Positions 3,094 to 52,464 of a stretch of DNA of 64,000 bases are shown piece after piece. The number at the start of each line of letters is the position of its first letter. Positions within the stretch are counted from its first letter, which is position 1. The translations under genes and the position numbers were made by a program. The DNA is from Tagaea sp. GTDB taxonomy: Bacteria > Pseudomonadota > Alphaproteobacteria > CACIAM-22H2. The notes beneath the pieces were generated by a model, which saw only the letters and a list, made by a program, of their open reading frames with translations, was not told the DNA's origin and did no database searches. The stretch covers positions 103,687 through 167,686 of the forward strand of contig JAYRYC010000005.1 of the NCBI GenBank assembly GCA_041917215.1. The letters run 5' to 3'.

Positions 3094-3779
3094 GGCAAGC
3101 GCTCCAGCCCCATCCGCCAGAACGAGGTTTCCAGGCGGCAGGCACGATCAAAGATCGTCGCGAGCGATTCGAAGCGACCGCCGCCGGCGCGCGTATACCA
3201 CAGGCGGTCGACGAAATCGGCCTTGCCGCGCGCGATGCGGCGATAATCGTCGCTCGAATAGGCGGCGATCCAATCGTTGTAGCGATTGCCTTCTTCGCGC
3301 CGCCAATCGGCTTCCTCGAGGCGCATCGCGATCTCGGCATAGCCCACGGTGCAAGGCACGAGCGCCGTCACGAGATCGAGGATATCGCCCTGCATGCCCG
3401 CCTCGAGCACGAAGCGCGTATAGGCGATGGTCGCCTCGGCTTCCTCGTAGGTCTCGATCTCGTCTTTCGAGATGCCCCAGCTTTCGCAATACTTCACGTG
3501 CATCGCCATCTCACCGTCGAGAATGGCTTTGACGCTGTTATTGACGAAAATCATGTCGGCGAGATTCTCGGCCTTATAGACCGCCAGCGCCCAGGCGCGC
3601 GCGAACTGCACCAGGAACAGATAGTCCTGGATCAGATAATGGCGGAAGCTTTCGACCGGCAGCGTGCCGTCGCCAAGCCCCCGCGTGAACGGATGCGTCG
3701 TATACGCGTCCCAGGAATCGCGGCACGCGTCGCGCAGGCGCTCGAACAGACCGTCCTTCTGCCACAGCACGACGCTCAT
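3090..3779 (-). CDS. TenA/thiaminase-II family protein (heme-oxygenase-like fold)
   Basis: The inner ATG at 3779 starts [62 protein letters not shown]. The HPF-...-YLIQDY-FL-F-RA pattern is TenA-like. Its start overlaps the iscX stop by 4 nt (ATGA) and its stop overlaps the mnmA start. Confidence 0.65.
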
Positions 3780-3979
3780 CGCCGCTCCTCCAGCCACGCC
3801 ATCTGGATCGCTTCCAGGATCTTCTCGTTCGACTTGTTCGGGTCGTCCTCGAAGCCGGGCAGCGCCTGGACCCATTTCCACAAATCGGTGAAGCGCAAAT
3901 TCTCGACGTCGGCGTCGGGATGCGCCTCCTCCAACTCGATGGCGATGTCGTTCACATCGGTCCAGCGCAGCTTCTTCAT
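3776..3979 (-). CDS. iscX: Fe-S cluster assembly protein IscX (YfhJ)
   Basis: The 67-aa protein MKKLRWTDVNDIAIELEEAHPDADVENLRFTDLWKWVQALPGFEDDPNKSNEKILEAIQMAWLEE aligns along its whole length with E. coli IscX (..KWTD..EIGEAL...PD.DP..VRFTD...W...L..FDDDP..SNEKILEAI...WL.E). Confidence 0.85.
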   Translation of the reverse strand: MKKLRWTDVNDIAIELEEAHPDADVENLRFTDLWKWVQALPGFEDDPNKSNEKILEAIQMAWLEERR

Positions 3980-28953: not shown

Positions 28954-29601
28954 ATGCCCGCAGCGATGGAGGAGCTGACTTACCGCCATCTGCTGTGGGC
29001 CTACGCCAACGGGATATTCCCGATGGCGCAGACCGCCGACGACCCGAAAATCGGCTGGTACGATCCCGATCCGCGCGGCGTGCTTCCCTTGGACGGCGTC
29101 CATATCCCCCGCTCGCTCGCCAAGCGCCTGCGCAAAAACCCGTTCGAGTTCCGCATCGACACGGCGTTCGCGGCGGTGATGGAAGGCTGTGCTGCGCGCG
29201 CCTCGACCTGGATCAACAAAACGATCCGCGATCTCTATCGCGAACTTCACGAAGCCGGCCACGCGCATTCGGTCGAGGCGTGGGCCGGCGGCGAGCTCGC
29301 CGGCGGGCTTTATGGCGTGCGATTGGGATCGGCGTTTTTCGGCGAAAGCATGTTCGCGCGCCGGGACGACGCGTCGAAAGCCGCCCTCGTCCATCTGGTC
29401 GCGCGTTTGCGCGCGGGCGGCTTCGTGCTGCTGGATACGCAGATGACGACCGAGCATATGGCGCGTTTCGGCACGGTCGAGATTTCGCGCGCCGAATATC
29501 GCCGCCGCTTGGCGCGCGCGTTGAAAGGCGTGGCGCCGTTTACGGAAATTCCGCAAGCGCGCATCGACGCCGAGTTTTCCAAACTGATCGGCCGGGGTTA
29601 A
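28954..29601 (+). CDS. aat: Leucyl/phenylalanyl-tRNA--protein transferase
   Basis: The protein has the motif [13 protein letters not shown] and the L/F-transferase GNAT-like C-terminal half. Confidence 0.85.
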
Positions 29602-29603
29602 GC

Positions 29604-29680
29604 CGGCCTCGCCCTTCGACAAGCTGAGGGTGAGGCCGAAGGAAAAGCCTCATGGTGAGCCTGTCGAACCATGAGGTCCG
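29604..29680. repeat. Copy 1 of a double-hairpin intergenic repeat (REP/MITE-like)
   Basis: Hairpin A is GGCCTCGCCC-ttcgacaagctga-GGGTGAGGCC (one G·U position). Hairpin B is CCTCATGG-tgagcctgtcgaa-CCATGAGG. The B module (cctcatggtgagcctgtcgaaccatgaggtc) is identical in the second copy at 45.3 kb. It sits right after the aat stop, in a terminator-like position. Confidence 0.7.
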
Positions 29681-29686
29681 CACCGC

Positions 29687-30067
29687 CTAACGGCAGCCGA
29701 CGACCCAGATGTCGTAGACCGGGTGATCCATCGCCGACACGGCCGGGGCGGAGGCGAACATCCAGCCCCGGAACACGGTCTGCGCCTGCTCGCCCGATTT
29801 GCGCTCGACCACGTCGAGATAGGCGGCACTTTCGGGCGGCTCCTCCGGCGGGCGCTTGCGGCAGGCGCGCACGACGACCGACAGCGTGCCGATCATCACT
29901 TCGCGTTCCACCGGCGCTTCGAGCGTGCGCACGCGCCCCGTGACCTTGTCCAGCGTCTGAAGCTGCGCCGTTTCCAGCGTGCGCCAATTGGCGGCGGGGG
30001 CGGTCTGCGCCCCGGCCGGGGCGGCGAAGGCGCACAGGATCGCGGCGAGGATGGAAAGAACGCGCAT
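29687..30067 (-). CDS. Secreted small protein, possibly DUF2155 family
   Basis: The inner ATG at 30067 gives a signal peptide MRVLSILAAILCAFAAPAGAQT. The protein is about 126 aa and has a C-terminal YDIWVVGC. Confidence 0.5.
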   Translation of the reverse strand: MRVLSILAAILCAFAAPAGAQTAPAANWRTLETAQLQTLDKVTGRVRTLEAPVEREVMIGTLSVVVRACRKRPPEEPPESAAYLDVVERKSGEQAQTVFRGWMFASAPAVSAMDHPVYDIWVVGCR

Positions 30068-38113: not shown

Positions 38114-39241
38114 ATGACCGACGACCAAGAAGACAAAACCCGCCGTCCCGGCGCCGACGTCGAGAAGTACGATTTGCGGCCGTTGCGCGAGATGCTGCGC
38201 TTGGCCGCCGACGGCGTCGAAGGCCTGTTGATGCACAACGTGCCGGGCCGCGAGAGCACGATCGATCGCGAAATCTTCGACGACATCGCGCGCGCGAAAT
38301 GCTTCCGCTTCAAGGAAGCGACGGGCGCCTTCGCCGACGCGCCGATCCGCTTCGACGCGACGCGCGGCCGGCTCGACGTCGTCACCAAGCTCGACGCGCG
38401 GGACGCCGACAGCGAAATCCAGATCGTGCGTTCGGGCAGCGACGCGATGCTGATGAAGGATACGGATCCGGGATCCGCCTATAACCGCCGCTTGGTCGAA
38501 ATCGTCTCGCAGGTGCTGGGCTTGGGCATCGTCGACGAGGTCGTGTTCGGCCAGACTTTGCCGGAGGCTTCGCTCCTCTATCTGCGCCCGCTGCCCGATC
38601 CCGAGGAAAGCTGCGAACAATTCATCGACCAGATCGTCGGCGCGATCGCGCGCCACAAGCCGCAACCGATCCGCAACAAACAGGCCTTCAACGAGGCCTA
38701 TGCGGGGCTGGTGATGCGGCTCGCGCGCTCGGGCATTCCGCCATCGCGCATGAACCCGATCGACATGCAGCAGACGATCCAGCAGGAAATGCTGCGCGGC
38801 ATGATGAAGGTCGAAATCTGGCGCAAGCTTTGGCGCTGGACGACCGAATGCGAAACGAAGCTTCAGCCGGTGAAGGCGATTCCGGCGGTGCAGTCGGACA
38901 AGGCCTCGTCCCAGCAGATCGCCGATCTCGAAAAGGCGATCAAACGCGCCGCCAAGACGATCGGCGTCCACGTCACCAACGCGAGCCTGCTCTACGAGCG
39001 CGCGGTCGGCGGCGAGAATTTCTACGTCGAGGCGATGCCCGCCATCCTCTATATCCGCGAGGCGCGCCAGACGGTGGAAGAGCTCTACACCATCGCCAAC
39101 GAGTGGTCGGTGCTGTGGACGGCCGTTCCGAAGAACGCCGCGTTGAACGACGTGAAAATGCTGCTGAAGCCCCTGCTCGTTTCGATCAAGGACGTTTTGT
39201 CCCGCCCCCAACCGCGCGAAGCCGTTTTGGGCACAAAATAG
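38114..39241 (+). CDS. Conserved hypothetical protein, tandem paralogue A (375 aa, no recognisable domain)
   Basis: This is a clean ORF with host-like GC3 codon usage and no signal peptide or TM segment. It shares long identical blocks with the next gene: LREMLRLAA-GVEGLLM, CFRFKE-TGAFADAPIRFDA-RGRLDVV, NRRLVE-VSQVLGLGIVDEVVFGQ-LPEASLLYLRPLP-PEESCE-FI, KPQPIRNKQAFNEAYA, NPIDMQ-T-QQEMLRGM-KVEIWRKLWRW, NFYVEAMPAILYIREAR and KDVLSRP. Confidence 0.7.
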   Translation: MTDDQEDKTRRPGADVEKYDLRPLREMLRLAADGVEGLLMHNVPGRESTIDREIFDDIARAKCFRFKEATGAFADAPIRFDATRGRLDVVTKLDARDADSEIQIVRSGSDAMLMKDTDPGSAYNRRLVEIVSQVLGLGIVDEVVFGQTLPEASLLYLRPLPDPEESCEQFIDQIVGAIARHKPQPIRNKQAFNEAYAGLVMRLARSGIPPSRMNPIDMQQTIQQEMLRGMMKVEIWRKLWRWTTECETKLQPVKAIPAVQSDKASSQQIADLEKAIKRAAKTIGVHVTNASLLYERAVGGENFYVEAMPAILYIREARQTVEELYTIANEWSVLWTAVPKNAALNDVKMLLKPLLVSIKDVLSRPQPREAVLGTK

Positions 39242-39315: not shown

Positions 39316-40449
39316 ATGGCGATCCAGGGTAACGATCCGCGCCGGCCGGGCGAGGATATCGACAAATACGACGATCGCGGCTTGCGCGAGATGCTGCGCT
39401 TGGCCGCCGAGGGCGTCGAAGGCCTGTTGATGCGCCACGTGCCCGGCAAGGAAAGCGATATCGACCGCGAGATTTTCGAGGATATCGGGCGCAGCGGCTG
39501 CTTCCGTTTCAAGGAATCGACCGGCGCCTTCGCCGACGCGCCGATCCGCTTCGACGCCGAGCGCGGCCGTCTGGACGTGGTGATGAACCTGAACCAGACC
39601 GGCCAGGAGACGGGCATCCAATTCGTGCGCTCGGGCTCCGACGCGTCGCTGATGCGCGATTACGATCCGGGCTCCGACTACAACCGCCGCCTCGTCGAGC
39701 TCGTCTCGCAGGTGCTGGGCCTGGGCATCGTCGACGAAGTCGTGTTCGGCCAGAAGCTGCCCGAGGCCTCGCTCCTCTATCTGCGTCCGCTGCCCCAGCC
39801 CGAGGAGAGCTGCGAGCGCTTCATCAACGACATCGTCACCGCGATCGGCAACTACAAGCCCCAGCCGATCCGCAACAAGCAGGCCTTCAACGAAGCCTAT
39901 GCGCGCCTCGTGCAGCGCCTGGCCAAATCGGGCGTGCCGCCGTCGCGCCTCAACCCCATCGACATGCAGCACACGCTGCAGCAGGAAATGCTGCGCGGCA
40001 TGGTGAAGGTGGAGATCTGGCGCAAGCTCTGGCGCTGGGTGATCGATTGCGCGGTGAAGGTGCAGGACCTGCGGCCCATTCCGGCGATCCTGTCGGATAA
40101 GCCGCTCTCGGCCCAAGTGCGCGACCTGGAAGACGCGTTGAAGCGCGCGGGCAAGATCATCGGCACGCATGTCTACAACGCCAGCATGCTCTACGACCGC
40201 GCGGTGAAGGGCATCAATTTCTACGTCGAGGCGATGCCCGCGATCCTTTACATCCGCGAAGCGCGGCCGGTGGTCGAGGAGATCTACGTCAAGGTCAACG
40301 GCTGGTCGGCCGCCTGGACGCATATGCCCAAGACAGCGTCGATCGGCGAAGCGACCAATCTTCTGGCCCCCACGATGGCGGGCGTGAAGGACGTGCTGTC
40401 GCGCCCCGCCCCGCGCGCGATCGGGGCCCCAGCCGGCGCGAAAAACTAG
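39316..40449 (+). CDS. Conserved hypothetical protein, tandem paralogue B (377 aa)
   Basis: It is collinear with paralogue A along its whole length, with roughly two-thirds or more identity by eye. A 74-nt spacer separates the two genes. Both upstream regions carry an AAATTTT-then-CCGAAT/CGGATT motif about 45-55 nt before the ATG. Confidence 0.7.
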   Translation: MAIQGNDPRRPGEDIDKYDDRGLREMLRLAAEGVEGLLMRHVPGKESDIDREIFEDIGRSGCFRFKESTGAFADAPIRFDAERGRLDVVMNLNQTGQETGIQFVRSGSDASLMRDYDPGSDYNRRLVELVSQVLGLGIVDEVVFGQKLPEASLLYLRPLPQPEESCERFINDIVTAIGNYKPQPIRNKQAFNEAYARLVQRLAKSGVPPSRLNPIDMQHTLQQEMLRGMVKVEIWRKLWRWVIDCAVKVQDLRPIPAILSDKPLSAQVRDLEDALKRAGKIIGTHVYNASMLYDRAVKGINFYVEAMPAILYIREARPVVEEIYVKVNGWSAAWTHMPKTASIGEATNLLAPTMAGVKDVLSRPAPRAIGAPAGAKN

Positions 40450-41074: not shown

Positions 41075-41983
41075 TCAGGAGCCCCGCTCCGGATCGAGGC
41101 CGGCGGCGCGCCGATAAAGCTTCGCCGCCTCGGCCGGATCGCGCGCCACGCCGCGCCCGGTTTCGTACATGCCCGCGAGATTGTTCATGGCGCCGCGATC
41201 GCCCAAGCGCACCGCGCGGCGGAAGAAATCGACCGCGCGCCCATCGTCGCGCGCGACCAATCGTCCGTCGCGATACCAGCGGCCCATATTGTTGAGCGCG
41301 GAGGCGTTGTTGAGCGCCGCCGCGCGCTCGTACAGCGCGAAGGCCGCCGGATCGTTGCGATCGATGCCGCGCCCGGCGGCGAACAGCGAGGCGAGGTTGT
41401 TCATCGCGGCGGCGTTGTTCTGCGCGGCCGAGCGGCGATACCAATCGACGGCGGTCTTAGCGTCCTGCGGGCCGCCTTCGCCGATATCGTTCATCACGCC
41501 GTACATGAATTGCGCGCGCGGATCGCCAAGCTCCGCGCCGCGCAAACTCCATTCGCGCGCCGAGGCGAGATCGCGCGACACGCCGCGCCCGTTGTAATGC
41601 GCTTGCGCCAGAAAAAACGCGGCCGAGGGCAAGCGCGCGGACCAGGCGCGCTCGAACATCTTGACGGCCGAGGCTTCGTCCTTCGGCACGCCCGCGTCGC
41701 CGTTGGCGGCGAGCAAACCCATCTCGACATAGGCGACCGGCTCGCCCTTGCCCATCGCCTGGACCAGCAGCTTGCGCATCTCGGCCAGATCCTGCGCCAC
41801 GCCGTCGCCGCGCCGATGCATCATGGCGAGGCGCACCAGCGCCAAACCTTCGGGCGTCGAGCGCAGATTTTGTTCTTGGGCGGCGGTTTGCGGACGGGGG
41901 GCATCGCCGGAATTGGCGACGCAAGCCCCGAGGGCCAACGCCAGTCCGGCCGCGACGCCAAAGCGGAAAAGTTTCGAGCGCAT
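41075..41983 (-). CDS. Sel1-repeat (TPR-like) lipoprotein
   Basis: The lipobox is MRSKLFRFGVAAGLALALGACV. There are multiple Sel1 repeats (A-A--NNLA--Y--GRGV-RD---A---Y-RAA). Confidence 0.8.
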   Translation of the reverse strand: MRSKLFRFGVAAGLALALGACVANSGDAPRPQTAAQEQNLRSTPEGLALVRLAMMHRRGDGVAQDLAEMRKLLVQAMGKGEPVAYVEMGLLAANGDAGVPKDEASAVKMFERAWSARLPSAAFFLAQAHYNGRGVSRDLASAREWSLRGAELGDPRAQFMYGVMNDIGEGGPQDAKTAVDWYRRSAAQNNAAAMNNLASLFAAGRGIDRNDPAAFALYERAAALNNASALNNMGRWYRDGRLVARDDGRAVDFFRRAVRLGDRGAMNNLAGMYETGRGVARDPAEAAKLYRRAAGLDPERGS

Positions 41984-43018: not shown

Positions 43019-44170
43019 ATGCCCGATGGCGCGCTGACGCTGAAGATCGACGCGGTCGAAAGCCTGGCCGCGATCACCCCCGCGGAATGGGATGCGTGCG
43101 CCGGTGCGGATAATCCGTTTTTGAGCCACGCCTTCCTGTCGGCGCTGGAAGATTCGGGCAGCGTGGGCCCGCGCACCGGCTGGGCGGCGCATCACCTGGT
43201 CGCGCGCGACGACGCGGGCACGCTGGTCGGCGCCGTGCCGCTTTACGCCAAAAGTCACAGCCAGGGCGAATACGTCTTCGACCATAGCTGGGCGCAGGCC
43301 TATCAGAACGCCGGCGGGCGCTATTACCCGAAGCTGCAAGCCTGCGTGCCGTTCACGCCCGTTCCCGGCGCGCGATTGCTCGCAAGGCCCGGCGAAAGCC
43401 GCGACGCGGTGCGCGAAGGCCTCGCACAAACCCTGGCCGGTTTGCCGCGCTCCAGCGGCGTGTCCTCGCTGCACGTCACGTTCTGCGACCAAAGCGACGC
43501 CGAGCTGCTCGCCGAAAACGGCTTCGCGTTGCGCCGGGGCGTGCAGTTCCATTGGGAAAATCGCGGCTATGGCAGCTTCGACGATTTTCTGGGCGCGCTG
43601 TCGCATTCGCGGCGCAAGGCGATCAAGCGCGAGCGGCGCGACATTGCCGCGACCGGGATCGAGTTCGTAGGCCTGACCGGCGGCGATTTGCTGCGCGAGC
43701 ATTGGAGCGCGTTCTTCGCGTTCTACATCTCGACCTCCGACCGCAAATGGGGCAATCCCTATCTCACGCGCCGCTTTTTCGATCTGCTGCATGATCGCCT
43801 GGCGGACAAAGTGCTGCTGATCCTGGGCCGCAAGGACGGCGAATGGGTGTGCGGCGCGCTGAACCTGATCGGTAGCGACACGTTGTACGGCCGCAATTGG
43901 GGCGCTTCGGTCGATCTGCCGTTCCTGCATTTCGAAGCGTGCTACTACCAAGCGCTCGACTTCGCGATCGCGCGGGGATTGAAACGCGTCGAAGCGGGGG
44001 CCCAAGGCGAGCACAAGCTGCAACGCGGCTATTTACCCGTGTCGACATGGAGCGCGCATGCGCTGCGCGATCCGGGTTTCGAGAAAGCCGTGCGCGATTT
44101 CTGCCGCGCCGAGGACGACGCGATGCGCGCCCATATCGACGAGCTCGCTGCCGAAGGGCCCTATAAATGA
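43019..44170 (+). CDS. GNAT-fold acyltransferase of the FemAB-like / BioF2-like (DUF482) family
   Basis: The 383-aa protein starts ...NPFLSHAFLSALEDSGSVGPRTGW... and its C-terminal half is GNAT-like. It is typical of the peptidoglycan-interpeptide-bridge-like acyltransferase family of unknown function. Confidence 0.6.
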   Translation: MPDGALTLKIDAVESLAAITPAEWDACAGADNPFLSHAFLSALEDSGSVGPRTGWAAHHLVARDDAGTLVGAVPLYAKSHSQGEYVFDHSWAQAYQNAGGRYYPKLQACVPFTPVPGARLLARPGESRDAVREGLAQTLAGLPRSSGVSSLHVTFCDQSDAELLAENGFALRRGVQFHWENRGYGSFDDFLGALSHSRRKAIKRERRDIAATGIEFVGLTGGDLLREHWSAFFAFYISTSDRKWGNPYLTRRFFDLLHDRLADKVLLILGRKDGEWVCGALNLIGSDTLYGRNWGASVDLPFLHFEACYYQALDFAIARGLKRVEAGAQGEHKLQRGYLPVSTWSAHALRDPGFEKAVRDFCRAEDDAMRAHIDELAAEGPYK

Positions 44171-45303
44171 GCCTGCCCGCGATCCGAGATTTCGCGCGCG
44201 AAGGCTACGATCCCGCGCGTTATCAAGCGCTGGGGCCCGATTGGTTCCTCGCCGTCGCGGATGTGGAGGCGAGCACGAAGCTCGCCGGGGCGGGCCGCGA
44301 CCGCGACGTGAATTTCGTCGCCGGGGCGGCCGTTGCCGTGCTGTCCACCGTCGCGACGAAGCCACCCGACATGACCGCCTGCCAATTCGGCGGCGACGGC
44401 GCCATCGCCGCCGTGTCGCCGGGCTGCGAAGCCGCGACGCGCGCCGCGTTGGCGGCGCTGGCGCATTGGGCGGCGGCGGAGATCGACATTCCCTTGCGCG
44501 TCGGCCTCGTGCCCGTGAAGGCGTTGATCGACGCGGGCCACGATGCGCGCGCGGCGTTGCAGGATTTCGGCGGCGGCAATGTGTTCGGCCAATTCCTCGG
44601 CTCGGGCATCGCGGCGGCCGACGCTTGGGTCAAAGCCGACGGCAAATGGCGCATCGATCCCGCCCCCGGTGAATTGCCGGGGATCGAGGGCTTGTCGTGC
44701 CGCTGGCAGCCGGTCCCTTCACGGCGCGGCCATGTGCTGTGCGTGATCGTCGATCCCGCCCCCGGTGCGGCGGGCGAAGCGGCCCTGGCGCGCTTGCTGG
44801 CCGATTTCGAGCGCATCGTGCCCGGCGCGACCGCGGCCCCGCTGGGCAATGGCGATACGCTCGAACCCAAAGGGATCCCCGCCTGGCGCGCCTTGCGCAA
44901 CGAGATGCGCGCGCAGAAACCGGGTGCACGGCTCAAGCGCCTGGCGGCGGCGATCGGCGGGATGATGATCCTGAAGACCGTCCACGCACTGGGCGGCAAA
45001 TGGGGCCGCATCGACACGAAGAATTATACGCGCGGCCTTGCCGAACGTTCCGACCACCGCAAGCTCGCCGGCGGCCCGCGCTTCGTGCTGGATGTGACCG
45101 ACGCGGAAGAAGCGGCGATCCAGGCCGCCCTGGCGCGCGAGGAGAACGCGGGCGCCATCGCGTTCGGCACGGCGCGCGCCGACAGCACGACGATCACCTG
45201 CCTGGTCGGCGATTTCATGGCCGACCGGCATGTCCATTTCGTCGATGGCGACGGGTTGGGTTTCTGGCGGGCGGCCAGCGCACTTAAAGCCAAACGCACT
45301 TAG
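44167..45303 (+). CDS. Nucleotidyl-cyclase-fold protein (class III cyclase-like, possibly DUF3095)
   Basis: The N-terminal domain FLAVADVEASTKL...FGGDGAIAAV...LRVGLVPVKALIDAG has the same arrangement as class III cyclase motifs (F-DI-GFT ... IGDA-MAVF ... LR-GIH-G-V). Its ATG overlaps the GNAT gene stop (ATGA). Confidence 0.5.
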   Translation: MSLPAIRDFAREGYDPARYQALGPDWFLAVADVEASTKLAGAGRDRDVNFVAGAAVAVLSTVATKPPDMTACQFGGDGAIAAVSPGCEAATRAALAALAHWAAAEIDIPLRVGLVPVKALIDAGHDARAALQDFGGGNVFGQFLGSGIAAADAWVKADGKWRIDPAPGELPGIEGLSCRWQPVPSRRGHVLCVIVDPAPGAAGEAALARLLADFERIVPGATAAPLGNGDTLEPKGIPAWRALRNEMRAQKPGARLKRLAAAIGGMMILKTVHALGGKWGRIDTKNYTRGLAERSDHRKLAGGPRFVLDVTDAEEAAIQAALAREENAGAIAFGTARADSTTITCLVGDFMADRHVHFVDGDGLGFWRAASALKAKRT

Positions 45304-45327
45304 AGTTTATTGGGACCGATCTTGGTC

Positions 45328-45419
45328 CGGCCTCACCCTTCGACATGGGCGTCTATTGGCGGCCACAGGGTGAGGCCGAAAATAGACCTCATGGTGAGCC
45401 TGTCGAACCATGAGGTCAG
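45328..45419. repeat. Copy 2 of the double-hairpin intergenic repeat
   Basis: Hairpin A is GGCCTCACCC...GGGTGAGGCC with a longer loop insert. Hairpin B, CCTCATGG-tgagcctgtcgaa-CCATGAGG, is identical to copy 1. It lies between the convergent cyclase-like gene and the cNMP-binding gene. Confidence 0.7.
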
Positions 45420-45457
45420 ACGAGCACGCCCTCAAAGCCAAACGCGCGGCGTGACGC

Positions 45458-45910
45458 TTACGCCGGCGGCGCTTTGGGGTCGACGTCGTTTTTGATCTCG
45501 ACGCCCATTTCCTTGAGCTTGGCGCGCAGCACTTCGTTCTGCGTTTGCGAGATCAAGGCATTGCGCGTCATCACGCGCAGATTTTCGACGAACATGCGCA
45601 GCAAGGCGCGCACGAACGGGTCGGCTTGGCGCATCTTCTCGGTGAATTGATCGGCCGAAACCAGAATGACGGTCACGTTGGTCGAAGCGATGGCGTCCGC
45701 CATGCGCTTCTTGCCGTCGATCAGCGCCATCTCGCCGAAAATCTCGCCGGCGGCGAGCTGGGCGATGCGCTTGGTCTGGCCGCCCACGTTGCGCACGATA
45801 TCGACCGTGCCGCTTTCGATCACGTAAGCCGCGTCGCCCGCGTCGCCGGTGCGGAAGATCGTCCGCCCATTGGCGAAATGCTTGCGGGGAAGAATCGTTT
45901 GCTGCGACAT
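45458..45910 (-). CDS. Stand-alone cyclic-nucleotide-binding domain protein
   Basis: The protein has the cNMP-binding beta-roll motif region (IFRTGDAGDAAYVIESGTVDIV...GEIFGEMALI...R-A). It is 150 aa with no DNA-binding domain. Confidence 0.7.
   Translation of the reverse strand: MSQQTILPRKHFANGRTIFRTGDAGDAAYVIESGTVDIVRNVGGQTKRIAQLAAGEIFGEMALIDGKKRMADAIASTNVTVILVSADQFTEKMRQADPFVRALLRMFVENLRVMTRNALISQTQNEVLRAKLKEMGVEIKNDVDPKAPPA

Positions 45911-52389: not shown

Positions 52390-52464
<75 letters not shown>

What the first reader, a model, noticed from the sequence alone, without database searches (positions are those of the whole stretch)
29604..29680. Double-hairpin intergenic repeat, copy 1 (second copy at 45328-45419)
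Two intergenic loci share the same two-module architecture. Module A is a 10-bp-stem hairpin GGCCTC(A/G)CCC...GGGTGAGGCC. Module B is the identical 29-nt hairpin CCTCATGGTGAGCCTGTCGAACCATGAGG. Module B is 100% identical between copies, while module A loops differ by an insertion, which is typical of a dispersed REP/MITE-like family. It resembles the 'cctcatcctgagcttgtcgaaggatgagg' repeats of Rhizobiales but with a different stem sequence. Both copies sit at gene 3' ends, so they are likely to act as terminators or mRNA stabilisers.
Basis: seen in the sequence. Interest (0 to 1): 0.5.

Follow-up and report, generated by a model that had tools for sequence, protein, structure and literature searches.

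The report
Inserted hairpin-pair repeat, nuclease-linked family
Two short stretches wedged between converging genes are copies of a small inserted DNA repeat made of two mirror-image hairpins, and the same hairpins occur in many bacterial phyla and bracket a small nuclease gene, which hints at an undescribed enzyme-plus-repeat partnership like the known RAYT/REP one.

Summary
Both loci carry hairpin A, a short A/T-rich spacer, then hairpin B, and 31 nt around B are identical. Both copies are insertions. Close relatives have empty sites where the convergent genes abut or overlap; copy 2 is flanked by a 19-nt target duplication. The family is not local or Rhizobiales-specific: the 27-nt core of B occurs exactly in at least 118 loci from Alphaproteobacteria, Chloroflexota, Elusimicrobia, Planctomycetota, Acidobacteriota and Omnitrophota. 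The outer stem pair is lineage-specific, the hairpins are about 97% extragenic, density is about 37 per Mb, and pairs are almost always inverted. Neither Rfam nor the searched literature has it, and it lacks the GTAG/CGTC tags of known REP superfamilies. Unexpectedly, small UPF0213/Slx1-like GIY-YIG nuclease genes are bracketed by matched inverted hairpins of this family (51/74 loci versus 0–1 in controls). Best reading: a gene-less, REPIN-like selfish element, probably tied to that nuclease. Any terminator or stabiliser role is secondary and untested. Copy number in the source genome could not be measured.

The parts
29592..29682 (+). Inserted segment of copy 1 (91 nt). Relatives lack it: there the two convergent genes overlap by 4 nt.
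   Evidence: Empty sites in L242, L243 and L244, aligned. The aat C-terminus changes from ..KLIGAA* to ..KLIGRG*, with a new TAA stop at the edge of the insert.
29605..29637 (+). Hairpin A, copy 1: 10-bp stem (one G.T pair) and loop TTCGACAAGCTGA ('F' orientation on the + strand).
29638..29647 (+). A-rich internal spacer GAAGGAAAAG (U-rich when read on the - strand after rc(B)).
   Evidence: F->R spacers are AT-rich across the family.
29648..29676 (+). Hairpin B, copy 1: stem CCTCATGGT/ACCATGAGG and loop GAGCCTGTCGA ('R' orientation: the loop is the reverse complement of A's).
45279..45297 (+). Direct repeat 1 (CGCACTTAAAGCCAAACGC). It now encodes the functional C-terminus ..ALKAKR(T*) of DUF3095.
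   Evidence: alignment with empty sites L120-L124 and L128.
45298..45426 (+). Inserted segment of copy 2 (129 nt). It is absent from relatives whose cNMP-binding protein is 100% identical.
45313..45328 (+). Small extra hairpin GGACC-GATCTT-GGTCC abutting hairpin A. A similar one precedes the Tagaea copy in L104.
45329..45377 (+). Hairpin A, copy 2: perfect 10-bp stem and a 29-nt loop (TTCGACA + 21-nt replacement + A).
45378..45386 (+). A/T-rich internal spacer GAAAATAGA.
45387..45415 (+). Hairpin B, copy 2, identical to copy 1.
45416..45454 (+). Relic of the old DUF3095 C-terminus (SDEHALKAKRAA*), displaced by the insertion. It contains direct repeat 2.
45427..45445 (+). Direct repeat 2 (CGCCCTCAAAGCCAAACGC), matching repeat 1 at 17 of 19 positions.
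28954..29601 (+). aat (Leu/Phe-tRNA protein transferase), whose 3' end faces copy 1.
29687..30067 (-). DUF2155 gene, whose 3' end faces copy 1.
44167..45303 (+). DUF3095 gene, whose 3' end was rebuilt by the copy 2 insertion.
45458..45910 (-). cNMP-binding protein gene, whose 3' end faces copy 2.

Best explanation
Each locus is a gene-less 'hairpin doublet'. It consists of two REP-like hairpins of one family in inverted orientation around a short A/T-rich spacer.

**What it is.** The first hairpin has the loop TTCGACARGCTSA and the second has its reverse complement. The two stems differ by compensatory changes, CCC/GGG in one and TGG/CCA in the other.

**How it got there.** The doublet is selfish, inserted DNA. 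Both copies landed at the abutting 3' ends of convergent genes, where a duplication or new stop codon kept both genes intact.

**What family it belongs to.** The family is old and present in many phyla. Its hairpins also form the matched inverted ends of small UPF0213/Slx1-like GIY-YIG nuclease gene cassettes.

**Inferred, not shown.** The nuclease recognises the conserved loop and stem junction. It cuts or processes these hairpins and thereby spreads, homogenises or maintains the gene-less doublets in trans. This would parallel what RAYT transposases are thought to do for REPINs.

**Secondary effect, inferred.** The stable hairpins between convergent genes probably impede 3' exonucleases or read-through. 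That would hold especially for - strand transcripts, where rc(B) is followed by a U-rich spacer.
For: **Shown: the anatomy.** A and rc(B) both fit one hairpin pattern with 0 mismatches.

**Shown: both copies are insertions.**
- Copy 2 has empty sites in L120-L124 and L128, a 129-nt insert and a 19-nt direct repeat.
- Copy 1 has empty sites in L242-L244 and a 91-nt insert.

**Shown: the doublet is the repeated unit.**
- Three copies at 88-95% identity lie in a Tagaea chromosome.
- F->R spacers are AT-rich (median GC 0.42 versus 0.63 for the locus), whereas R->F spacers match the locus GC (p = 5e-7).

**Shown: family properties.**
- >=118 loci in >=6 phyla.
- The outer stem pair is G-C in Chloroflexota and the other non-proteobacterial phyla sampled except Ca. 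Cybelea, and C-G in Alphaproteobacteria.
- The stem covaries (score 0.47 versus 0.19 in shuffles, 0/500 reaching it) while the loop is nearly invariant.
- 76 of 81 adjacent pairs are inverted, and 66 of these 76 are TGG x TCC/CCC heterodimers.
- Only 6 of 229 hairpins lie deep inside called genes, and convergent intergenic regions are enriched.
- Density is about 37 per Mb away from the ascertained sites.

**Shown: the nuclease link.**
- All 4 GIY-YIG ORFs in the genome loci are flanked by family hairpins.
- In metagenome loci chosen by protein alone, 51 of 74 have an inverted repeat between the upstream region and the stop region. Displaced controls gave 0/63 and 1/67.
- Upstream and downstream hairpin types always agree: 45 matched, 0 mixed.
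- The loop is kept even in AT-rich genomes.
- Catalytic residues are conserved. The protein hits PF01541, and the nearest solved structures are the UPF0213 proteins 1zg2 and 1ywl.
- A cultured example exists in Rhizobium albus.
Against: - No GIY-YIG gene lies in the 64-kb window. The source genome could not be inspected, so co-occurrence in this organism is unknown.
- Gene cassettes have the order R-gene-F, while the window doublets are F-spacer-R. The doublets are therefore not simple internal-deletion derivatives.
- Identical GIY-YIG proteins sit at the same locus in different samples, so there is no sign of recent transposition of the gene.
- GIY-YIG enzymes are nucleases, and no strand-transfer activity is known for them.
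- An IS110-family transposase also sits between an R and an F hairpin (L013). The space between hairpins may simply be a favoured landing site.
- The 19-nt duplication at copy 2 is not explained by any known GIY-YIG cleavage pattern. Copy 1 shows only a weak, degenerate duplication.
- The terminator/stabiliser effect is untested, and there is no canonical T-run.
Confidence: 0.6

Rival explanations
1. Landing-pad model. The hairpins spread by some other, unknown route. The GIY-YIG genes, like IS110 elements, are independent selfish genes that home into the space between an R and an F hairpin, so the nuclease does not mobilise the doublets.
For: - The GIY-YIG gene lies between R and F, where R->F spacers elsewhere have ordinary host GC content.
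- An IS110-family transposase occupies the same kind of position in L013.
- REPs are known targets of IS elements (PMC1525189).
- Free-standing GIY-YIG homing endonucleases are established knowledge.
Against: - Upstream and downstream hairpins always match in type: four types, 45 matched loci, 0 mixed.
- Rare loop variants are shared by both ends of one cassette (L141).
- The loop is conserved with the gene across phyla and GC contents, which suggests specific recognition rather than an incidental target.
- Identical proteins do not occupy multiple sites, which is unlike an actively homing gene.
Confidence: 0.2
2. Host-selected regulatory hairpins. The doublets are kept because they act as bidirectional terminators or mRNA 3' stabilisers for convergent genes. 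Sequence conservation would reflect binding of a conserved host RNA-binding factor.
For: - Both window copies lie between convergent genes.
- Family hairpins are extragenic and enriched in convergent regions: 30/108 regions with a hairpin versus 64/390 without.
- On the - strand rc(B) is followed by CUUUUCCUUC or UCUAUUUUC.
- E. coli REPs act as terminator/stabilisers (bioRxiv 10.64898/2026.03.23.713779).
Against: - Close relatives do without the element at both sites.
- No canonical T-run was found by the scan.
- G.T and A.C stem mismatches are equally common (59 versus 55), so there is no sign that one transcribed strand is under selection.
- A conserved 13-nt loop shared across phyla is not needed for termination.
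- Hairpins also occur in tandem and divergent intergenic regions.
Confidence: 0.1
3. Classical REP/REPIN mobilised by a RAYT (Y1 HUH transposase) encoded elsewhere in the genome.
For: - The inverted doublet architecture, extragenic location and copy density are the same as for REPINs and BIMEs (PMC3116915, PMC3733652).
Against: - There is no GTAG or CGTC tag. The loop is 13 nt instead of 2-5 (PMC3733652, read).
- No RAYT-like ORF was found by an HUH + Y..NP motif scan in about 1.1 Mb of loci. This is a crude test.
- The gene consistently flanked by these hairpins is a GIY-YIG gene, not a Y1 gene.
Confidence: 0.05
4. Chance similarity, or a local duplication confined to this region.
For: - Only two copies are visible in the 64-kb window.
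Against: - 0 of 100 shuffles give any match.
- Exact copies exist in >=118 loci of unrelated genomes.
- The two copies have independent insertion sites, each with its own empty site.
Confidence: 0.01

Closest known systems
REPIN / BIME doublets with their RAYT (TnpA-REP) transposase (Bertels & Rainey 2011, PMC3116915; Nunvar 2010, PMC2817692)
   Same: - Two short palindromic units lie in inverted orientation around a short spacer.
- They are extragenic, and density is about 37 per Mb (roughly a hundred or more per genome, by extrapolation; per-genome counts not measured).
- A small nuclease-type gene is itself flanked by the same units in inverted orientation.
- The lineage-specific outer stem pair suggests long residence within lineages.
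   Different: - There is no 5' GTAG tag.
- The loop is 13 nt and conserved, instead of a short variable loop.
- The associated gene is a GIY-YIG (UPF0213/Slx1-like) nuclease, not a Y1 HUH transposase.
- The core sequence is conserved across phyla, whereas REP consensus motifs normally differ between taxa (PMC12306157).
CGTC-tagged REPs of Alphaproteobacteria (Di Nocera et al. 2013, PMC3733652)
   Same: - They occur in alphaproteobacterial hosts.
- They are predominantly inverted dimers, often heterodimers with compensatory stem differences.
- They lie between unidirectional or convergent ORFs.
- No dedicated transposase is known for them.
   Different: CGTC REPs have a CGTC tag, 8-9-bp stems starting with A-T pairs, 4-5-nt loops and CCA tails. 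None of these features is present here.
MITEs
   Same: - Small and non-coding.
- The ends are inverted copies of each other.
- An insertion polymorphism with a target duplication is seen at copy 2.
- A gene-bearing relative carries the same ends.
   Different: - The ends are themselves hairpins.
- The duplication is unusually long (19 nt) and unclear at copy 1.
- The gene-bearing relative encodes a nuclease, not a transposase, and its ends are in the opposite order (R-gene-F versus F-spacer-R).
Bacterial UPF0213 / Slx1-like stand-alone GIY-YIG proteins (PDB 1zg2, 1ywl; Dunin-Horkawicz 2006, PMC1564403)
   Same: - The hairpin-flanked ORFs are about 95-110 aa, consist of a GIY-YIG domain only and keep the catalytic residues.
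- Eukaryotic Slx1 is a structure-specific nuclease. From my own knowledge, not from a paper read here, its substrates include stem-loops and branched DNA.
   Different: That family was described as vertically inherited repair proteins. No association with flanking inverted hairpins or dispersed repeats was reported.
Free-standing GIY-YIG homing endonuclease genes
   Same: - A GIY-YIG nuclease gene is embedded in a repeated sequence context that could supply its own target.
   Different: - There is no NUMOD or other DNA-binding domain.
- The gene is not in introns or phage genomes. The hairpins are rare in viral contigs (3 and 15 stretches).

Membership tests
REP (repetitive extragenic palindrome), generic definition (five criteria in PMC12306157) | Short palindrome able to form a stem-loop | tested here: met
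   9-10-bp stems; fold z-scores -3.4 to -5.8; stem covariation 0.47 versus 0.19 in shuffles.
REP (repetitive extragenic palindrome), generic definition (five criteria in PMC12306157) | Extragenic location | tested here: met
   Both window copies are intergenic. Only 6 of 229 family hairpins lie deep inside called genes (crude gene calls).
REP (repetitive extragenic palindrome), generic definition (five criteria in PMC12306157) | Shared consensus motif among copies | tested here: met
   The loop TTCGACARGCTCA is nearly invariant in 285 distinct hairpins.
REP (repetitive extragenic palindrome), generic definition (five criteria in PMC12306157) | Many copies per genome | tested here: inconclusive
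   The source genome is unavailable; the window has 4 hairpins in 64 kb. In other genomes there are several exact loci per MAG despite a truncated scan and about 37 hairpins per Mb. Contig breaks inside B in k=31 assemblies could arise from two copies alone.
REPIN-RAYT system | Two REPs in inverted orientation separated by a short spacer | tested here: met
REPIN-RAYT system | Conserved GTAG (or related) tetranucleotide at the 5' end of the REP | tested here: not met
   The sequences carry no such tag. Definition from PMC3733652.
REPIN-RAYT system | A Y1 (HUH) RAYT gene flanked by the same REPs | tested here: not met
   A motif scan found none in about 1.1 Mb of loci. This is a crude test, and whole genomes were not searchable. 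The flanked gene is a GIY-YIG gene.
CGTC-REP superfamily (PMC3733652) | CGTC/TGTC/CCTC tag, 8-9-bp stem beginning with A-T pairs, 4-5-nt loop, CCA tail | tested here: not met
   The loop is 13 nt, there is no CCA tail, and the stem does not begin with A-T pairs.
MITE | Terminal inverted repeats plus a target-site duplication | tested here: inconclusive
   The ends are inverted hairpins. A 19-nt duplication flanks copy 2. Only 5/9 and 4/9 residual matches are seen at copy 1.
MITE | An autonomous partner encoding a transposase with the same ends | tested here: not met
   The partner with the same hairpins encodes a GIY-YIG nuclease, and its ends are in the opposite order.
Intrinsic (Rho-independent) terminator | GC-rich hairpin with a short loop, followed directly by a T-run | tested here: not met
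   The consensus scan did not report it. The loops are 11-13 nt. Only rc(B) on the - strand is followed by a T-rich but interrupted tract.
Any Rfam family | Match to a covariance model | tested here: not met
   No hit at gathering scores. At E<=10 only weak, unrelated matches appeared.
RIME / Sm-repeats of Sinorhizobium (Osteras 1995) | Sequence identity to the published RIME consensus | not testable with these tools

The most novel reading that the evidence does not exclude
This hairpin family and the small UPF0213/Slx1-like GIY-YIG nuclease genes it brackets form a second, independently evolved 'REP plus cognate enzyme' system. It would be analogous to REPIN-RAYT but built on a structure-specific GIY-YIG nuclease. 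The system is ancient and spread over many phyla, and the conserved loop serves as the enzyme's recognition element. The window doublets would then be its non-autonomous members.
Probability: 0.35. Interest if true: 0.8.

Novelty: new variant of a known kind. Interest (0 to 1): 0.62.

Why it matters
How REP-type repeats arise and spread is understood, and only partly, for the GTAG REPs that travel with RAYT transposases. Other large REP superfamilies 'apparently lack a dedicated transposase' (PMC3733652).

Here a REP-like hairpin keeps a 13-nt loop across phyla and across GC contents. It is consistently wrapped around a minimal GIY-YIG nuclease gene whose function has been unknown since its structures were solved (1zg2, 1ywl).

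If the link is functional, it would do three things:
- Give a testable role to a protein family with thousands of members.
- Offer an explanation for a repeat that litters the intergenic DNA of Alphaproteobacteria, Chloroflexota and others and generates many spurious ORFs.
- Provide a second model for long-lived intragenomic repeat populations.

For annotating this window the practical message is simpler. The two elements are inserted selfish DNA, and the 3' ends of aat and DUF3095 were rebuilt by the insertions.

Tried and rejected
**Database and literature searches with no result**
- Rfam found nothing at gathering scores or at E<=10.
- PLSDB plasmids by blastn: no match.
- Full-text literature searches found no description of the repeat. 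I searched the DNA strings, the peptides encoded by the repeat (FDKLRMR, SLSNHE and others), GIY-YIG with REP/REPIN/RAYT, and YhbQ/COG2827/UPF0213.
- Br-REP1 and Br-REP2 of Bradyrhizobium (PMC5082802) are different sequences.
- The RIME paper is not held.
- NCBIfam has no model for the GIY-YIG ORFs.

**Readings rejected**
- CRISPR or an integron attC site: the array spacing and motifs do not fit. L002 has a 111-nt period made of hairpin units.
- A protein-coding reading of the repeat, such as the 61-aa ORF at 45310-45495. The hairpins occur in both orientations, the stems covary and no reading frame is conserved.
- Phage carriage as the route between phyla: only 3 and 15 stretches in 2.9 million viral contigs, none with a GIY-YIG gene.

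**Tests that gave little**
- Evidence of recent transposition of the GIY-YIG gene: identical proteins sit at one locus across samples.
- A promoter-like match inside copy 2 (- strand, 45406->45379) is no more than chance gives: 2 found, 3.0 expected.
- Contig breaks inside hairpin B looked like evidence for many copies. A 31-nt exact repeat present twice is enough to break k=31 assemblies.
- The organism could not be identified. The nearest named DUF2155 homologues are from Rhodospirillales/Telmatospirillum.

Full report
**1. Observation**

- Copy 1: hairpin A at 29605-29637 (GGCCTCGCCC, loop TTCGACAAGCTGA, GGGTGAGGCC, with one G.T pair), spacer GAAGGAAAAG, hairpin B at 29648-29676.
- Copy 2: hairpin A at 45329-45377 (perfect stem, 29-nt loop), spacer GAAAATAGA, hairpin B at 45387-45415.

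B occurs exactly twice in the window and never in 100 shuffles, even with three mismatches allowed. The identical stretch is 31 nt. All four strands fold much better than shuffles, with z from -3.4 to -5.8.

Hairpin A of copy 1 and the reverse complement of B both fit CCTCNNNNTTCGACANGCTNANNNTGAGG without a mismatch. A and B are therefore the same hairpin type in opposite orientation. Their stems differ by compensatory changes (CCC/GGG versus TGG/CCA).

I call a hairpin 'F' when the loop reads TTCGACARGCTCA and 'R' when it reads the reverse complement. Both window elements are then F-spacer-R, whichever strand is read.

**2. Setting**

Both elements lie between convergent genes:
- aat (PF03588) and a DUF2155 gene;
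- a DUF3095 gene and a cNMP-binding protein gene.

**3. Both copies are insertions**

Copy 2:
- The cNMP-binding protein is 100% identical on ten public contigs.
- In six of them (L120-L124, L128) no element follows the stop of the cNMP-binding gene; in L120-L123, which carry a called DUF3095 gene, that gene follows 3 nt after the stop.
- In three (L125-L127) the sequence is as in the window.
- The alignment shows a 129-nt insert (45298-45426) about 30 nt inside the 3' end of DUF3095.
- The insert is flanked by a 19-nt direct repeat (45279-45297 and 45427-45445, 17/19 identical).
- Both repeat copies still encode ALKAKR. The old C-terminus survives as a relic (45416-45454), and the new stop codon comes from the insert.

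Copy 1:
- Relatives whose DUF2155 protein is 87-91% identical (L242-L244) have the two genes overlapping by 4 nt and no element.
- The window has a 91-nt insert (29592-29682). The end of aat changes from ..KLIGAA* to ..KLIGRG*, with a new TAA stop at the insert edge.
- A target duplication is at best degenerate here (5/9 and 4/9 residual matches).
- Copy 1 is present in every closer relative found (L119, L130-L132), so it is probably the older insertion.

**4. A family far beyond this genome**

- The loci come from Alphaproteobacteria (Devosia, Aminobacter, Rhizomicrobium, Dongiaceae, Tagaea and others), Chloroflexota/Dehalococcoidia (including complete chromosomes), Elusimicrobia, Planctomycetota, Acidobacteriota and Omnitrophota.
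- Mis-binning is unlikely, because the base pair just outside the 27-mer is lineage-specific. It is G-C in 27 of 32 Chloroflexota copies and in all Elusimicrobia (6 of 7), Planctomycetota, Acidobacteriota and Omnitrophota copies. It is C-G in 54 of 81 alphaproteobacterial copies. The window has the alphaproteobacterial form.
- A strict finder (loop with at most 2 substitutions, stem of at least 5 bp) gave 229 hairpins in 849 kb.
- More than 500 nt from the ascertained match, density is about 37 per Mb. The window has 62 per Mb.
- The stem covaries: at the two inner pairs CG 52/58, GC 22/15, almost no unpaired cells. The covariation score is 0.47 versus 0.19 in shuffles, reached by 0 of 500. 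The loop is nearly invariant. The sequences were pre-filtered for pairing, so the percentage paired is biased, but the strand swaps are not.
- G.T and A.C mismatches in the stem are equally frequent (59 versus 55). Nothing points to selection on one transcribed strand.

**5. Doublets**

- Of 81 adjacent hairpin pairs, 76 are inverted, and nearly all combine a TGG-type stem with a TCC- or CCC-type stem.
- F->R spacers, the window's arrangement, are AT-rich: median GC 0.42 against 0.63 for the locus.
- R->F spacers have the locus composition, 0.66 (p = 5e-7).
- The 16 nt after an F hairpin are more AT-rich than the 16 nt before it.
- The complete 74-nt doublet of copy 1, including its G.T pair and A-rich spacer, recurs at three loci of a Tagaea sp. 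chromosome at 88-95% identity.

The F-spacer-R doublet is therefore a unit in its own right.

- By crude GC3-based gene calls, 6 of 229 hairpins lie deep inside genes.
- Intergenic regions with a hairpin are 65 tandem, 30 convergent and 13 divergent. Regions without one are 262, 64 and 64.

**6. The nuclease link**

- Four small GIY-YIG ORFs occur in the 118 genome loci, and all four are directly flanked by family hairpins.
- A metagenome scan with protein patterns only ([WCR]ER[QR]IKGW and [YF]VY[IM][LV][ERH]C[ARS]D) returned 565 relatives, of which the best 80 were kept.
- In 74 loci with enough flank, the 120 nt upstream and the region around the stop contain an inverted repeat (score >=16) in 51 cases. 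Displaced controls gave 0/63 and 1/67, and shuffles 0/74.
- The arrangement is stereotyped. An R hairpin lies about 20-60 nt before the start. An F hairpin overlaps the stop, with the TGA lying in the 3' stem so the ORF ends ..PHGSTSSP* or ..PHPSTSSG*, or follows it closely.
- Four hairpin types occur: the short-loop type of the window, two long-loop versions sharing the ends CCTGAG...TCGAAGG, and an unrelated one.
- The upstream and downstream types always agree: 24+11+7+3 matched loci and 0 mixed.
- The short loop is kept even in AT-rich genomes (for example L149 and L195).
- The proteins are PF01541 only and keep the catalytic residues.
- They are closest to the UPF0213 structures 1zg2 and 1ywl. 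This is the bacterial Slx1-like group, described as minimal, vertically inherited repair nucleases (PMC1564403).
- The family has 1399 representatives at E<=1e-10.
- A cultured example is Rhizobium albus BSNO01000004.1, with the arrangement F..R-gene-F..R.

Three results argue against a simple 'transposase' picture:
- Identical proteins occupy one locus across samples, for example downstream of gatA.
- The cassette order R-gene-F is the reverse of the F-spacer-R doublet.
- An IS110-family transposase also lies between an R and an F hairpin in L013.

**7. Comparison with known families**

- Rfam has no match.
- The two REP superfamilies of Di Nocera et al. need a GTAG or CGTC tag and 2-5-nt loops. 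These hairpins have neither.
- The described habits of REP dimers do fit: inverted, often heterodimers, between unidirectional or convergent ORFs.
- No RAYT-like ORF was seen in about 1.1 Mb by a motif scan (a crude test).
- No paper in the searchable library links GIY-YIG proteins to REPs, REPINs or RAYTs. REP consensus motifs are generally reported to differ between taxa (PMC12306157).
- The hairpins are not canonical intrinsic terminators. On the - strand, however, rc(B) is followed by CUUUUCCUUC or UCUAUUUUC, downstream of the DUF2155 and cNMP genes.
- E. coli REPs can act as partial terminators and stabilisers (bioRxiv 10.64898/2026.03.23.713779).

**8. Verdict**

Shown:
- The two loci are inserted copies of an inverted hairpin doublet.
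- The doublet belongs to a widespread, extragenic, structurally constrained repeat family.
- The hairpins of that family bracket small GIY-YIG nuclease genes.

Inferred:
- The nuclease recognises and processes the hairpins and so drives or maintains the gene-less doublets (my estimate about 0.35).
- Alternatively, the hairpins are merely its landing site (about 0.2).
- Any terminator or stabiliser effect on the flanking genes is plausible but untested.

Unknown:
- Copy number in the source genome and the presence of a GIY-YIG gene there.
- The mechanism behind the 19-nt duplication.

Noticed in passing
window 38141-39166 and 39340-40365: Two tandem segments 1199 nt apart are 71-82% identical over about 1 kb. 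They are probably adjacent paralogous genes.
   Followed up: no
window 41141-41627: Three 55-nt segments recur at an exact 216-nt period with 60-71% identity. This suggests a repeat-containing protein-coding region.
   Followed up: no
window 52390-52461 (+): A tRNA gene, the only Rfam match at gathering scores in the window.
   Followed up: no
window 45406-45379 (- strand): A sigma-70-like match (TCGACA, 16 nt, TATTTT) is formed by the loop of rc(B) plus the AT-rich spacer of copy 2. The number of such matches in the region is no more than chance.
   Followed up: partly
L013 about 920-2260 (Devosia sp. MAG DASZUI010000159.1): An IS110-family transposase gene (PF01548 + PF02371) sits between an R and an F hairpin of the family. 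This is the same position the GIY-YIG genes occupy, and it fits REPs being IS110 targets.
   Followed up: partly
L002 3479-3920 (Rhodospirillaceae MAG CAZMUZ010000007.1): A tandem array of hairpin units with a 111-nt period: B-type hairpins at 3479, 3590 and 3701, then a fourth at 3871 (170 nt on), interleaved with TCC/CCC-type hairpins. It resembles a BIME-like cluster.
   Followed up: no
L217-L221 (JGI soil metagenomes): One GIY-YIG cassette lies between gatA (amidase) and the next gene of what looks like the gatCAB operon. It is at the same place in five samples.
   Followed up: no
L179, L181, L191, L205, L209: A GIY-YIG subgroup (N-terminus ..YVYI/M..) is bracketed by a different inverted hairpin: GGTTGAGTAGGCCG..CGGCCGTATCGAAACC and GGTTTCGATACGGCCG..GGCCTACTCAACC. 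The gene-plus-inverted-hairpin architecture is therefore more general than one hairpin sequence.
   Followed up: partly
L006, L020, L033, L086, L099 (Elusimicrobia MAG CAYHKQ01): In this genome hairpin B is part of a longer repeated unit (..cacgactcatgcaaaatgat..aaaagccg-B-ccaagacgcaaaaaaccctgtat-TCC hairpin) that recurs on five contigs.
   Followed up: no
L240 1288-1968 (Rhizobium albus GCA_030160035.1, BSNO01000004.1): A cultured isolate carries a cassette F..R-GIY-YIG-F..R with 12-13-bp stems (CCACCCTC../..GAGGGTGG). It is a convenient system for experiments.
   Followed up: partly
window 45416-45454: The displaced old C-terminus of DUF3095 still reads ..ALKAKRAA*. It differs from the functional copy only at synonymous positions within the 19-nt repeat. 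This may be chance or a sign of recent coding constraint.
   Followed up: partly
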